Assembly (NCBI GenBank): GCA_031425655.1
Contig: JANPJS010000300.1
Coordinates: 1 to 12,252, forward strand
Source of the DNA: Abditibacteriaceae bacterium
GTDB lineage: Bacteria; Armatimonadota; Abditibacteriia; Abditibacteriales; Abditibacteriaceae
Direction of reading: 5' to 3'
DNA length: 12,252 nt
Below are positions 3,216 to 6,896 of this stretch, piece by piece. Numbering within the stretch: position 1 is the stretch's first letter; each line of letters opens with the position of its first letter. The notes beneath the pieces are model-generated. The model made no database searches. It was not told the origin of the DNA and was given only the letters and a program-made list of their open reading frames with translations. Position numbers and translations under genes: made by a program.

Positions 3216-3293
3216 AACCGCCGATGAACGCTGATAAACGCAGATGACTTTGGATAGAAAACTATCTGCGTTTATCAGCGTTCATCGGCGGTT
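3216..3293. repeat. Perfect 30-bp inverted repeat built from 10-nt units (sdhA/sdhB junction)
   Basis: AACCGCCGAT GAACGCTGAT AAACGCAGAT (3216-3245), an 18-nt spacer, then the exact reverse complement at 3264-3293. Confidence 0.95.
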
Positions 3294-3298
3294 GATAA

Positions 3299-5212
3299 CT
3301 ACTTGTAACTCCGCTGCGAGGGATGCACTTCCTCGAAGACAAGCTGTTCTTTGTGCAGGTTTTGCGGTTGGTTGTCGCCCGTCCATTCCCACGCGGCGAC
3401 GTATGCAAAGTTTTCGTCGTCGCGCTGCGCTTCACCGTCGGGCGTTTGGTATTCTTCGCGGAAGTGGCCGCCACACGATTCTTCGCGGTTTAAAGCATCG
3501 CGGGCTAAAAGCTCACCGAATTCGAGGAAATCGGCCACACGCAACGTGCGTTCGAGGTTCTGATTGAGGTTATTGGCCTCGCCGGGCACGCGCACGTCTT
3601 GCCAGAACTCGCCGCGCAGCGTTTGAATTTCGCCGATGGCCTTGGTCAGGCTGGCTTTGGTGCGCGCCATGCCCACGTTGTCCCACATGATGTGGCCGAG
3701 TTGGCGATGAAAATCGAGCATCGTCCGGCTGCCGTTGATGCTCAGCACTTTGCTAATCTGCGCTTGCATTGCTGCGCGCGATTCCTTGAAGGCGTCGTGT
3801 TCAGCGGTTAAAGCGGTGCGCGGCGTGCCCGCGATGTAGTCGCCGATGGTGTAGGGCAGCACGAAATAGCCGTCGGCCAAGCCTTGCATCAGCGCGCTGG
3901 CGCCTAAACGATTGGCGCCATGATCGGAAAAATTGGCTTCTCCTAAAACGTAAAGGCCGGGCACTGTTGACATCAGGTTGTAATCCACCCACAGACCGCC
4001 CATCGTGTAATGCACGGCGGGATAAATCCGCATCGGCATTTTATATGGGTCTTCGTCGGTGATTTTTTCATACATCTGAAACAGGTTGCCGTAGCGCGCT
4101 TCGATGACGTTTTTGCCCAATCGCTCAATCGAATCGGCAAAGTCGAGATAAACCGAAAGACCGCTGCTGCCGACGCCTTTTCCGGCGTCGCACTCGCCTT
4201 TGGCGGCGCGCGATGCCACGTCGCGTGGCACAAGGTTGCCGAAAGCCGGATAGCGGCGCTCAAGAAAATAATCGCGCTCACTTTCGGGAATTTGCGTCGG
4301 AGGACGCTTGTCGTCAGCGTTTTTGGGCACCCAGACGCGGCCATCGTTCCGCAAACTTTCGCTCATCAGCGTCAATTTCGATTGATGATCGCCCGAAACC
4401 GGAATGCAGGTCGGATGAATCTGCGTGAAGCACGGATTCGCCATCGCCGCGCCTTTTTTATGAGCGCGCCACGCCGCCGTTACATTGCTGTTGGCGGCGT
4501 TGGTCGAAAGATAATACACGTTGCCGTAGCCGCCGGTGCAAAGCAAAACCGCGTCGGCGGCGTAAGATTCGATTTCGCCGGTAATCAAATTCCGCATCGT
4601 CACGCCGCGCGCCTGACCGTCTACGACGACTAAATCCAACATTTCGCGGCGCGTGTGCAGCTTGACCGTTCCCGCTTCCACTTGGCGCATTAAGGCTTGA
4701 TAAGCGCCCAATAAAAGCTGCTGTCCGGTTTGGCCGCGCGCATAAAAAGTGCGCGAAACCTGAGCGCCGCCGAACGAGCGATTATCGAGCAAACCGCCGT
4801 ATTCGCGGCCAAAAGGCACACCTTGCGCCACGCATTGATCAATAATCTGGTTGGAAACCTGCGCCAAGCGGTAAACATTGGCTTCGCGGGCGCGGTAATC
4901 GCCGCCTTTGACGGTATCGTAAAACAAGCGGTGAATGCTGTCGCCGTCGTTGCGATAGTTTTTGGCGGCGTTGATGCCGCCCTGCGCGGCAATCGAGTGC
5001 GCGCGGCGCGGCGAATCGTGCAGACAAAACGTAGTCACGTCGTAGCCCAATTCGCCCAGAGACGCCGAAGCCGAAGCGCCCGCCAAGCCCGTCCCGACGC
5101 AAATAATTTTCACTTTGCGCTTGTTGGCCGGGTTGACCAGCTTTTCTTCGAATTTGCGGCGCTCCCATTTTTCGGACATCGGCCCGGAGGGAATTTTAGA
5201 ATCCAATTTCAT
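3299..5212 (-). CDS. sdhA: Succinate dehydrogenase/fumarate reductase flavoprotein subunit
   Basis: Rossmann motif VGTGLAG, covalent-FAD motif [41 protein letters not shown] and [10 protein letters not shown]; 637 aa. Confidence 0.98.
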
Positions 5213-5231
5213 GCGATGAGCCTAAGTTTTA

Positions 5232-5370
5232 GATTAACCACAGAGATCACAAAGGACACAGAGATTTTCAAAGAGTTGAATGTCAAATGGGAAAATTGAA
5301 GCATTCTTTAGCTTATCCATCACTTACTCTTTGAAAATCTCTGTGTCCTCTGTGATCTCTGTGGTTAATC
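5232..5370. repeat. 45-bp inverted repeat (44/45 match) containing 9-nt units (sdhC/sdhA junction)
   Basis: Left arm 5232-5276 (GATTAAC CACAGAGAT CACAAAGGA CACAGAGAT TTTCAAAGAGT), right arm 5326-5370, 49-nt spacer; the single mismatch is A5252/C5350. Confidence 0.95.
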
Positions 5371-5374
5371 CGCT

Positions 5375-6148
5375 TTAACGAAAGAAGATGATGATCGGGA
5401 GCAAAATGAAGCCGCCCGCCACGACGAAAGTAAAGACGCGCGCTATAAACCAGATGCCTTTTTCCCAGCGCTTGCTGTTGACGCCCAGCGTTTGGCTGGC
5501 GCTGTAAATCGCGTGATTGAGGTGCAAACCCAAGGCGATCATGCAGAACACATAGAGTAAGACGATAATCGGGTTGTGGAATTCTTCGCTGACCAGACGA
5601 TATAAATCGCGCATTTGGTGCTGCGCTTCGGCGGGCGTGTCCGCTGTTGTAGCGGCGGCTCTGGTGATGCCCAAAGCCACGCCTGATAAGTCGGTTTTAT
5701 ATTCGTCGAGAGTCCAGAACTTGTTGAATTTCAAGTGCCCGACGTGTAAGAACAGAAACACCAAAATAATGATGCCGGTCACAATCATCGTGGTGCTGGA
5801 GGTGCTTTTGCGGCTGCGCGTGCTTTTGGCGCGCGTCCACTGCTGCACTTCGTAGCCTTGCGGACGCGCCGATTTATTGCCCAGATAGACGATGATGCCT
5901 TCGTAAGCGTGAATCAGGAAAATCGCCAAAAGTCCGATTTCCATCGTCCAGACAAGCGGCGGCCAAGTCATCAGAATATGCGCGTAATTATTGAAAGCCA
6001 CGCCGCCATTGCCGGCGCCGAAGAGCAAAAGCGTGTTGCCCAGCAAGTGCAAAACCAGGAATATGCACAACGCCAGGCCCGTAACCGACATGAGGATTTT
6101 TTTGGTGATTGAGACAAGCCCCGGCTTGCCTATCAGGGGATTCGCCAT
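5375..6148 (-). CDS. sdhC: Succinate dehydrogenase cytochrome b subunit (single membrane anchor, b558 family)
   Basis: About five hydrophobic helices; KKILMSVTGL...FLVLHLLGN, FLIHAY, FLFLHV and LGLHLNHA supply heme-ligand His candidates; first gene of the C-A-B operon. Confidence 0.93.
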   Translation of the reverse strand: MANPLIGKPGLVSITKKILMSVTGLALCIFLVLHLLGNTLLLFGAGNGGVAFNNYAHILMTWPPLVWTMEIGLLAIFLIHAYEGIIVYLGNKSARPQGYEVQQWTRAKSTRSRKSTSSTTMIVTGIIILVFLFLHVGHLKFNKFWTLDEYKTDLSGVALGITRAAATTADTPAEAQHQMRDLYRLVSEEFHNPIIVLLYVFCMIALGLHLNHAIYSASQTLGVNSKRWEKGIWFIARVFTFVVAGGFILLPIIIFFR

Positions 6149-6245
6149 AAGCTGAGTTGCTCCGTGCGCGCAAAATACAATGGAGGGTCGGATTTAACTT
6201 TACAGGCTCAGGACGGCGGCGTGTGTCCGGCGAACGGCTTATTTC

Positions 6246-6821
6246 CTAATCGCATTCATAAGGCGGCAGCAACTCCGGCGGCACATCGGCCAACATTGGC
6301 GCTAAACGGTCTTTTTCAGCCAAAGTCAAAGCGGCGAAATCAAAGCCTTGAAGCGGCCATTCAATGCCGATTTGCGCGTCGTTCCACGCGATGCCGAATT
6401 GGTCGTCGGGCTTGTAGAAATCGTCGCATTTGTAAAGGAAATCGGCGCTTTCTGAGAGAACAACGTAGCCGTGAGCGAAACCACGCGGCACGAAAATCTG
6501 CCGCTTGTTTTCTTCCGATAAAAGCGCACCGGCCCATTGCCCGAACGTCGGCGAGCCGTGCCGAATATCAACAGCCACATCGAAGACTTCGCCCTGCGTC
6601 ACGCGACATAATTTTGCCTGCGGCTGCGCCAATTGGTAATGCATCCCGCGCAGCGTGCCGCGCGCCGACCGCGCCTGATTATCCTGCACAAAGCGCGCGA
6701 CAATGCCCGCATCGGCAAATTTCTGCGCGTGATAGCTCTCGTAAAAATAACCGCGCGCGTCGGAAAACACTTTGGGTTCGACTAACACCACGCCGGGCAA
6801 ATTAGTTTGGATGATGTTCAT
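6246..6821 (-). CDS. rfbC: dTDP-4-dehydrorhamnose 3,5-epimerase
   Basis: VFSDARGYFYESY, FVQDNQARS, GTLRGMHYQ, QAKL, VFDVAVDIRHGSPTFGQW, FVPRGFAHG, FLYKCD and IGIEWP are classic RmlC motifs. Confidence 0.97.
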   Translation of the reverse strand: MNIIQTNLPGVVLVEPKVFSDARGYFYESYHAQKFADAGIVARFVQDNQARSARGTLRGMHYQLAQPQAKLCRVTQGEVFDVAVDIRHGSPTFGQWAGALLSEENKRQIFVPRGFAHGYVVLSESADFLYKCDDFYKPDDQFGIAWNDAQIGIEWPLQGFDFAALTLAEKDRLAPMLADVPPELLPPYECD

Positions 6822-6823
6822 AG

Positions 6824-6896
6824 GAGTTTTGAGTTTTGAGTTTTGAGTTTTGAGTTGAGGTGTTAACTCATAATTCAGAACTTAAAACTCAAAACT
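6824..6896. repeat. Heptamer tandem repeat (GAGTTTT)n with a degenerate inverted copy (argS/rfbC junction)
   Basis: GAGTTTT x4 plus GAGTT (6824-6856), an 8-nt spacer, then AACTCAT AATTCAG AACTTAA AACTCAA AACT (6865-6896); 28/32 complementary. Confidence 0.92.

What the first reader, a model, noticed from the sequence alone, without database searches (positions are those of the whole stretch)
3216..6896. Family of tandem-unit palindromes placed 4-5 nt after stop codons at operon junctions
Seen: three of the four junctions in the argS-rfbC-sdhC-sdhA-sdhB run are almost entirely filled by long inverted repeats (stems of 30, 45 and 32 bp). Their arms are made of short tandem units with different periods (10, 9 and 7 nt). 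On the coding strand each begins 5, 4 and 5 nt after the upstream stop (sdhA, sdhC, argS) and ends 13, 19 and 3 nt before the next ATG. They are not ordinary terminators: they lie between co-oriented genes, including inside an obligate complex operon, and they are long and not GC-rich. Their sequences differ but they share architecture and placement. Inference: either a class of non-autonomous mobile elements that target intercistronic sites just after stop codons, or RNA processing or stability signals. From memory, not verified here, similar repeat arms flank small GxxExxY (TIGR04256) and four-helix-bundle (TIGR02436) genes in other bacteria. These could be the gene-less forms of such an uncharacterised system.
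Basis: partly seen in the sequence, partly recalled or inferred. Interest (0 to 1): 0.8.

Follow-up and report, generated by a model that had tools for sequence, protein, structure and literature searches.

The report
Repeat hairpins that overwrite each other
Three hairpin-shaped repeats between respiratory and tRNA-ligase genes belong to a family with hundreds of copies in this genome that likely spread as mobile DNA, likely by overwriting older hairpins at the same spots, possibly helped by two small uncharacterised genes that sit inside the same kinds of repeat.

Summary
Confirmed exactly: three inverted repeats with 10-, 9- and 7-nt periodic arms at the stated distances. They are 3 of about 430-475 such elements in the genome. 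They fall into two classes: 8-11-nt arms, like those around GxxExxY nuclease-fold genes, and 7-nt arms, like those around four-helix-bundle genes. Evidence for mobile DNA:
- The argS-rfbC element has 97% and 96% identical copies elsewhere.
- Two of the three junctions are empty in the closest relative, and the third holds a different element.
- There is no target duplication and no overall G·U bias on the mRNA strand.

The '4-5 nt after stop' rule is too narrow, and 13 copies sit in frame inside genes such as uvrA, rlmN and mutS2. Main extra result: occupied sites tend to stay occupied across species while the repeat unit changes, even at the same codon of conserved proteins. Best reading: non-autonomous palindromic elements that are copied and overwrite one another; the helper role of the two cargo genes is inferred, not shown. 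The scan found this system before, on other DNA and elsewhere in this genome.

The parts
3216..3293 (.). Element 1 (sdhA-sdhB junction): 30-bp perfect inverted repeat, 10-nt periodic arms, 18-nt loop; GxxExxY-associated class
   Evidence: best cassette-arm match is the genome's own GxxExxY cassette on C126; G001 and G002 carry a 7-nt-class element here instead
5232..5370 (.). Element 2 (sdhC-sdhA junction): 45-bp inverted repeat (44 pairs), 9-nt periodic arms, 49-nt loop; GxxExxY-associated class
   Evidence: best arm matches are all GxxExxY cassettes; the junction is 15 nt and empty in G002
6825..6896 (.). Element 3 (argS-rfbC junction): 32-bp inverted repeat with 4 mismatches, 7-nt periodic arms, 8-nt loop; four-helix-bundle-associated class; member of the largest family in the genome (78 copies)
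   Evidence: full-length copies 97.2% and 95.8% identical on C63 and C124; best arm match is the 4HB cassette on C92; 11 nt and empty in G002; folds at -42.8 kcal/mol on the non-coding strand vs -26.1 on the mRNA strand
2456..3202 (-). sdhB (flanking gene)
   Evidence: NF005746
3299..5212 (-). sdhA (flanking gene)
   Evidence: NF005749, TIGR01811
5375..6148 (-). sdhC, b558 family (flanking gene)
   Evidence: TIGR02046
6149..6245 (.). rfbC-sdhC junction: no element (internal control)
   Evidence: folding z +0.8
6246..6821 (-). rmlC/rfbC (flanking gene)
   Evidence: TIGR01221
6902..8680 (-). argS (flanking gene)
   Evidence: TIGR00456

Best explanation
The three hairpins are gene-less members of two families of palindromic repeat DNA with hundreds of copies in this genome; they are likely copied from locus to locus without target duplication, likely by replacing a short stretch of target and often an older hairpin at the same site, with the GxxExxY nuclease-fold protein (8-11-nt class) and the four-helix-bundle protein (7-nt class) as inferred helpers.

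Shown: multi-copy families; near-identical copies at unlinked loci; presence/absence and unit swaps at orthologous sites; in-frame copies; class-specific pairing of arms with cargo genes; an intact PD-(D/E)XK motif.

Inferred: (1) The arms extrude as a cruciform or single-stranded hairpin that a class-specific protein recognises. (2) A nick or break there is repaired by copying another family member, which overwrites the site and keeps the two arms mirrored. (3) New sites are colonised more rarely. They survive mainly just past stop codons, where the element can supply the stop and leave the next gene's start region intact, or in frame in tolerant protein loops. The four-helix-bundle protein has no known catalytic activity, so the cutting enzyme for the 7-nt class is unidentified.
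For: Copy number: 393 of 2018 co-oriented, 67 of 381 convergent and 15 of 425 divergent gaps of 30-400 nt; 42 of the 475 fall outside the two classes.
Copying: 47 of 181 elements with loops of 30 nt or more share the loop with an unlinked element, similarity mostly ends at the arms, and both orientations occur (26 same, 22 opposite). Element 3 has 97% and 96% copies. G000 elements resemble G000 elements more than G002 or G003 ones (25 vs 7 and 22 vs 7 in equal pools of 33) and are about 3-fold denser.
Polymorphism. An overlapping stop/start junction in G000 holds a GxxExxY cassette in all three same-genus genomes, with the stop codon inside the arm.
Overwriting: a relative has an element at 35 of 74 junctions where G000 has one, vs 21 of 148 where it has none (odds ratio 5.4); only 6 of 35 keep the unit and 3 switch class. 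All 6 in-frame sites checked have a heptamer array at the same codon in at least one relative (about 17 of 29 orthologues, about 12 of them with another unit; read by eye). Three other in-frame copies stand in place of 5-13 codons of an empty orthologue.
No TSD signal. Arms are mirrored, including transversions (276 vs 58 expected).
Cargo link: 38 of 40 GxxExxY and 19 of 23 4HB loci have arms; periods 8-11 in 36 of 38 vs period 7 in 17 of 19; arm and protein similarity correlate weakly (rho 0.26 and 0.20). The nuclease motif and fold are intact.
Against: No biochemical or in vivo movement data. Cargo genes could be passengers: the correlation is weak and kin are not independent, and loops keep no cargo remnants (0 of 475). 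The relatives are 79-89% identical in protein, so overwriting cannot be separated from repeated independent insertion into favoured sites or from in-place drift of the unit; class retention (32 of 35) fits drift equally well. The within-genome similarity signal is not significant for G002. The 7-nt class is polarised relative to transcription (purer 3' arm 103 vs 32; nearest copies in the same orientation 48 vs 18), which a purely symmetric DNA mechanism does not explain. The 8-11-nt class shows a mild G·U excess (98 vs 65, p=0.012). Elements are enriched in conserved syntenic junctions (57 of 212 vs 393 of 3215), which selection could also produce. Gene calls come from a home-made caller.
Confidence: 0.6

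Rival explanations
1. No enzyme-driven mobility: each hairpin is old, and it is renewed in place by replication slippage of short units plus template switching between arms, so the unit drifts while the site persists.
For: Site and class retention across species; mirrored variants; solo arms and relics at orthologous codons; slippage of 7-nt units is proposed in the literature (as summarised in PMC4679880, passage read).
Against: It cannot produce shared non-periodic loops at unlinked loci in both orientations, 97%-identical asymmetric copies, class switches at one site, cassette versus empty overlap at one site, or the class-specific link to cargo genes.
Confidence: 0.15
2. The stems are selected RNA elements (RNase III sites or stabilisers that tune subunit ratios), and repeats are only the raw material that recreates a needed hairpin at certain junctions.
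For: They sit in transcribed gaps and avoid divergent ones; the same junctions are reused; conserved operons are enriched; RNase III is encoded; the related Coxiella IVS stem is cut by RNase III in vitro (PMC4990558, passages); mild G·U excess in the 8-11-nt class.
Against: No overall G·U bias and a reverse bias in the 7-nt class (82 vs 128), against 39 vs 15 in terminators. Element 3 folds better on the non-coding strand. Two of the three junctions are empty in G002. Copies lie inside coding sequences, and convergent gaps are filled as often as co-oriented ones (p=0.44).
Confidence: 0.12
3. Insertion is coupled to transcription or translation: the 7-nt class is written in through an RNA intermediate, or at single-stranded DNA behind a terminating ribosome, with the Avd-like four-helix-bundle protein binding the repeat RNA.
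For: Polarity of 7-nt elements relative to transcription; 56% within 10 nt of the stop vs 24% expected where the gap has slack; a weak bAvd-like match below the curated cut-off in one of two 4HB proteins.
Against: Flipped copies exist (18 of 66 pairs); the 8-11-nt class shows no polarity; no reverse transcriptase link was examined; selection after insertion could create the polarity; the replication-strand test was inconclusive.
Confidence: 0.13

Closest known systems
REPIN/RAYT (Bertels and Rainey 2011, PMC3116915; passages read)
   Same: Non-autonomous inverted-repeat doublets in extragenic DNA, a helper gene flanked by its cognate repeat, several distinct helper/repeat sets per genome.
   Different: Arms are tandem 7-11-nt units, not short REP palindromes. 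The enclosed genes are a PD-(D/E)XK protein and a four-helix bundle, not an HUH tyrosine transposase. Cassettes change position between species. Sites are re-occupied by other units, and copies occur in frame.
ORF-bearing 23S rRNA intervening sequence, Coxiella burnetii IVS (PMC4990558; passages read)
   Same: Terminal inverted repeats around an S23p/four-helix-bundle gene (PF05635), with tandem heptamers in the 5' region.
   Different: Here the elements lie between and inside protein genes, are mostly gene-less and number in the hundreds. RNase III excision is shown for the IVS only.
Heptamer arrays of Xanthomonas/Nostoc (PMC4692102) and Beggiatoaceae (PMC4679880); passages read
   Same: 7-nt units between co-oriented genes, near stops or just before starts, often as inverted pairs (70 cases in Xcc), and in ribosomal-protein operons.
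   Different: Those papers treat single units as G-quadruplex or translational signals. In the passages read they do not link them to four-helix-bundle or GxxExxY cassettes or to unit swaps at one site.
MITEs, including ERIC, Correia and Rickettsia palindromic elements (review PMC10969869; passages read)
   Same: Short non-autonomous inverted-repeat elements; RPEs insert in frame into genes; Correia and ERIC alter RNA processing.
   Different: No target duplication detected, no cognate IS transposase linked, no fixed terminal sequence, periodic arms.
MIRUs of mycobacteria
   Same: Intercistronic 40-100-nt repeats oriented relative to transcription (recalled).
   Different: Recalled as tandem mini-ORF units without periodic inverted arms or cargo genes; not tested here.

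Membership tests
REPIN/RAYT | Inverted doublet forming a hairpin, multi-copy, extragenic | tested here: met
   (539 of 552 periodic repeats lie outside gene interiors)
REPIN/RAYT | Cognate helper is a RAYT (HUH tyrosine transposase) flanked by the repeat | tested here: not met
   Genes enclosed by these arms are PF13366 and PF05635; no RAYT-like ORF was recognised by eye among the 41 enclosed intervals listed; the genome was not searched for RAYTs
REPIN/RAYT | Excision intermediates in population reads | tested here: inconclusive
   Only contigs were available; no joint skipping an element among the 15 rows shown, 86 more not shown
MITE (DDE-type) | Target-site duplication | tested here: not met
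   5- and 6-nt flanking repeats 6 vs 8 and 2 vs 2 against control, slight excess at 3-4 nt; three empty orthologues show replacement, not duplication
MITE (DDE-type) | Terminal repeats shared with an IS transposase | not tested
   No search of IS ends was run
ORF-bearing 23S rRNA IVS | Located in 23S rRNA | tested here: not met
   The window elements lie between protein genes
ORF-bearing 23S rRNA IVS | Inverted repeats with heptamers around an S23p/four-helix-bundle ORF | tested here: met
   Met by the gene-carrying 7-nt cassettes; the window copies are gene-less
ORF-bearing 23S rRNA IVS | Excised from RNA by RNase III | not testable with these tools
   No RNA holder listed; an RNase III gene is present
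Rickettsia palindromic elements | In-frame insertion in unrelated protein genes | tested here: met
   13 copies; a minority here, while the review reports nearly half of RPEs in ORFs
Rickettsia palindromic elements | Sequence homology to RPE families | not tested
   No RPE sequences were compared
Intrinsic terminator | Short GC-rich stem followed by a U run | tested here: not met
   None of the 16 terminator-like sites maps to the three elements
Rfam RNA family | Match above the gathering score | tested here: not met
   Only sub-threshold miRNA-hairpin matches

The most novel reading that the evidence does not exclude
A distinct class of selfish DNA in which a minimal PD-(D/E)XK nuclease (GxxExxY) and an Avd-like four-helix-bundle protein each maintain their own periodic palindromes, and elements home into existing hairpins and overwrite them. 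A site, once hit, becomes a permanent landing pad, even inside essential proteins, where it keeps rewriting a loop peptide. This would give a function to two large orphan protein families and explain bacterial heptamer repeats.
Probability: 0.3. Interest if true: 0.88.

Novelty: new variant of a known kind. Interest (0 to 1): 0.7.

Why it matters
Heptamer repeat arrays are an old unexplained feature of bacterial genomes, and TIGR04256/PF13366 (listed as function unknown in PMC3424549, table row read) and TIGR02436/PF05635 are large orphan families. This work ties the gene-less hairpins to both families, class by class. It adds a testable rule: sites are kept while the repeat is swapped, including in frame in UvrA, RlmN, MutS2 and CsaB. 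If the roughly 125-residue nuclease proves to be the mover, it would be a very small transposase-free insertion system. If the four-helix bundle binds the repeats, it would explain the origin of ORF-bearing rRNA intervening sequences.

Tried and rejected
- Rfam: no family above threshold.
- Terminator reading: rejected.
- Target-site duplication: not found.
- Cargo remnants in loops: 0 of 475.
- Cargo genes at sdh junctions of 80 distant named genomes: 0, although gene-less periodic hairpins occur at 12 of 73 sdhA-sdhB and 3 of 59 sdhC-sdhA junctions.
- RNA evidence: no RNA holder listed. The laid runs were contigs only and uninformative on excision.
- Leading/lagging-strand test of polarity: skew too weak (sign agreement 51 of 89), inconclusive.
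- The first automatic classification of relatives' junctions under-called degenerate elements (seen) and was replaced by a shuffle-calibrated one (0 of 322 false positives).
- A permutation test of unit distance at orthologous sites was not run, so drift versus replacement stays open on that measure.
- Literature: 10 searches found no paper linking these genes to periodic inverted repeats. 'GxxExxY' occurs in 3 papers, of which 2 were seen as listings only. The library lacks most subscription papers, and no supplements were read.
- Only 945 kb of G002 (about 6.1 Mb) and 800 kb of G003 (about 5.3 Mb) were compared.
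Full report
1. Observation. The run argS-rmlC(rfbC)-sdhC-sdhA-sdhB is confirmed on the minus strand. 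The three inverted repeats, their periods (10, 9, 7) and their offsets are exactly as reported. They fill 78 of 96, 139 of 162 and 72 of 80 nt of their junctions and fold at z = -12.6, -13.9 and -8.2; the fourth junction is unremarkable. They are not terminators and match no Rfam family above threshold.

2. Genome context. With a home-made gene caller (4,671 genes) I scored every gap of 30-400 nt. Periodic inverted repeats occupy 393 of 2018 co-oriented, 67 of 381 convergent and 15 of 425 divergent gaps; 0 of 400 shuffled gaps pass. Of the 475, 204 are an 8-11-nt class, 216 a 7-nt class, 13 a related 8-nt class and 42 other repeats. Of the co-oriented ones, 81% start within 10 nt of the stop and 124 of 393 overlap it; only 54 start at 4-5 nt. 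Where the gap leaves at least 30 nt of slack (144 cases), 56% still lie within 10 nt of the stop against 24% expected, and 3% lie within 10 nt of the start. Between convergent genes, 43 of 67 run from stop to stop (hand count).

3. Gene-carrying forms. The genome has 7 TIGR02436 and 9 TIGR04256 hits, most bracketed by the same arms. Over the loci gathered from the family, 38 of 40 scored GxxExxY genes (one divergent locus dropped as no hit) and 19 of 23 four-helix-bundle genes have inverted arms. Periods are 8-11 in 36 of 38 and 7 in 17 of 19. Arm similarity tracks protein similarity weakly (rho 0.26 and 0.20; kin not independent). Window elements 1 and 2 match GxxExxY arms best, element 3 the four-helix-bundle cassette on C92. 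GxxExxY is PF13366 with a conserved acidic/lysine catalytic motif and QxxxY. Its model (pLDDT 95) resembles lambda-type exonucleases, Cas4 and Holliday-junction resolvases at modest scores (best E 6e-4; TM about 0.4-0.56 for these hits). The four-helix bundle is PF05635, with a weak bAvd-like match in one of two. No gene-less element retains cargo fragments (0 of 475), so these elements replicate as a population of their own and are not fresh deletion scars.

4. Movement. Element 3 has full-length copies 97.2% and 95.8% identical on other contigs, with the same asymmetric variant pattern. 47 of 181 long loops are shared between unlinked elements, similarity mostly stops at the arms, and both orientations occur; a few of these pairs belong to other repeat families. 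In the closest relative, G002, argS-rfbC is 11 nt and sdhC-sdhA 15 nt, both empty, while sdhA-sdhB holds a 7-nt-class element; other family members hold several further types there, or none. One junction with overlapping stop and start in G000 carries a GxxExxY cassette in G001-G003, whose arm supplies the upstream stop. Five junctions with a cassette in a relative hold a gene-less element of another unit in G000. G000 has about three times the density of G002 and G003, and its elements resemble each other more than those of relatives, which suggests a recent burst. No target duplication is seen. Gene-less periodic hairpins also follow the sdhA stop in 12 of 73 distant genomes, mostly Bacteroidota.

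5. Sites persist, units change. In 222 orthologous junctions (from 945 kb of G002 and 800 kb of G003), a relative has an element at 35 of 74 sites occupied in G000 but at 21 of 148 others (odds ratio 5.4; significant in each genome alone). Only 6 of 35 keep the unit, 24 barely align (hand count) and 3 switch class, one of them confounded by a tRNA. In several cases the flanks are conserved up to the element edge. The sharpest case is inside genes. 13 of 552 periodic repeats are in-frame 7-nt-class copies, in UvrA, RlmN, MutS2, RecG, PriA, CsaB, Ppk1 and others. For all 6 genes checked, at least one relative has a heptamer array at the same codon (about 17 of 29 orthologues, about 12 with a different unit; by eye). 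Most of the G000 in-gene copies tested match widespread G000 families (19-49 sites for 5 of 7, 3-5 sites for the other 2). With so few in-frame copies per genome, independent hits on the same codon are unlikely unless occupied sites attract new copies. This is the basis for the overwriting inference. In-place drift remains a rival for the 7-nt class.

6. DNA or RNA. Isolated mismatches on the coding strand are G·U 209 vs A·C 219 overall, against 39 vs 15 in 264 terminator-like hairpins. The 7-nt class is 82 vs 128 and the 8-11-nt class 98 vs 65. Variants are mirrored between arms far more often than independence predicts (276 vs 58, with 165 transversions; inflated by selecting good repeats). 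This fits arm-to-arm copying in DNA better than selection on an RNA stem. Against a purely symmetric model, 7-nt elements have a purer 3' arm (103 vs 32) and mostly keep their orientation to transcription (48 vs 18); the replication-strand test failed. Perfect 30-45-bp stems in sdh mRNA would plausibly be RNase III substrates (gene present; precedent in the Coxiella IVS), but I regard that as a likely side effect, and it is untested.

7. Mechanism. Most likely (0.6): non-autonomous palindromic elements copied by cut-and-repair without target duplication, often onto older hairpins. Helper proteins are inferred from the class-specific cassettes, and stop-codon adjacency arises mainly from survival, stop-codon donation and re-occupation. 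Rivals: in-place slippage and template switching (0.15), transcription- or RNA-coupled insertion (0.13), selected RNA signals (0.12).

8. Known systems. It works like REPIN/RAYT but fails the RAYT criterion. It shares cargo and heptamers with the Coxiella IVS but not the location. It fails the MITE target-duplication test and resembles RPEs in its in-frame copies. Single heptamer families with the same placement are described in Xanthomonas, Nostoc and Beggiatoaceae, without the cargo link in the passages read. All papers were seen as passages only; supplements were not read. Ten searches found no description of the combined system. Earlier notes of this scan report the cassettes and hairpins in at least 22 genomes and elsewhere in this genome, and one reports a recurrent in-frame site. 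The co-occupancy, in-frame re-occupation and mismatch tests reported here are my own.

9. Verdict. Real; a new variant of non-autonomous palindromic mobile DNA; interest 0.7. The boldest reading, a self-overwriting homing system run by two orphan protein families, has probability about 0.3.

Noticed in passing
G000 C47:6017-6087, C5:9362-9429, C312:71286-71365, C235:2774-2913, C233:11926-12038, C318:29048-29136, C39:1984-2062 and six more: In-frame heptamer palindromes add 20-47-residue loops to UvrA, RlmN, MutS2, RecG, PriA, CsaB and Ppk1; relatives often carry other heptamers at the same codon.
   Followed up: yes
G000, genome-wide; e.g. inside both arms of the GxxExxY cassette at C298:36390-36880: The most frequent non-periodic 16-mer (116 copies) belongs to an approximately 20-nt insert found inside other repeats, sometimes mirrored in both arms; it is also seen in G001-G003 loci. 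Reported earlier by the scan.
   Followed up: partly
G000 C244:30832-31272 and many 40-130-nt inverted repeats: Other palindrome families coexist, one enclosing a 130-aa ORF that looks like a DUF559-type endonuclease (recalled resemblance, not scanned).
   Followed up: no
window 2409-2442: Short GC-rich hairpin flanked by A/T runs between the convergent gene at 1272-2384 and sdhB, probably a bidirectional terminator; a contrast to the three elements.
   Followed up: no
window 1272-2384 (+): 370-aa secreted-looking protein with no NCBIfam match; its C-terminal part resembles prepilin-associated DUF1559-like domains (recalled, not tested).
   Followed up: no
window 8850-11510 (+): 886-aa protein with an N-terminal HtrA-type serine protease domain and a long uncharacterised remainder.
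   Followed up: no
L021 (G017) sdhA-sdhB gap; G000 C70:13125-13719: Small two-gene modules that look like toxin-antitoxin pairs occupy junctions that hold repeat elements or cassettes in relatives (resemblance by eye).
   Followed up: no
L026, L030, L022, L190, L193 (genus g6): A short palindromic word recurs densely in intergenic DNA of genus g6 genomes, reminiscent of highly iterated palindromes.
   Followed up: no
G000 C74:24225-24832, C126:3778-4419, C143:56279-56833: Some cassettes are flanked by a complete gene-less hairpin in addition to the enclosing arms, so elements can nest or abut.
   Followed up: no
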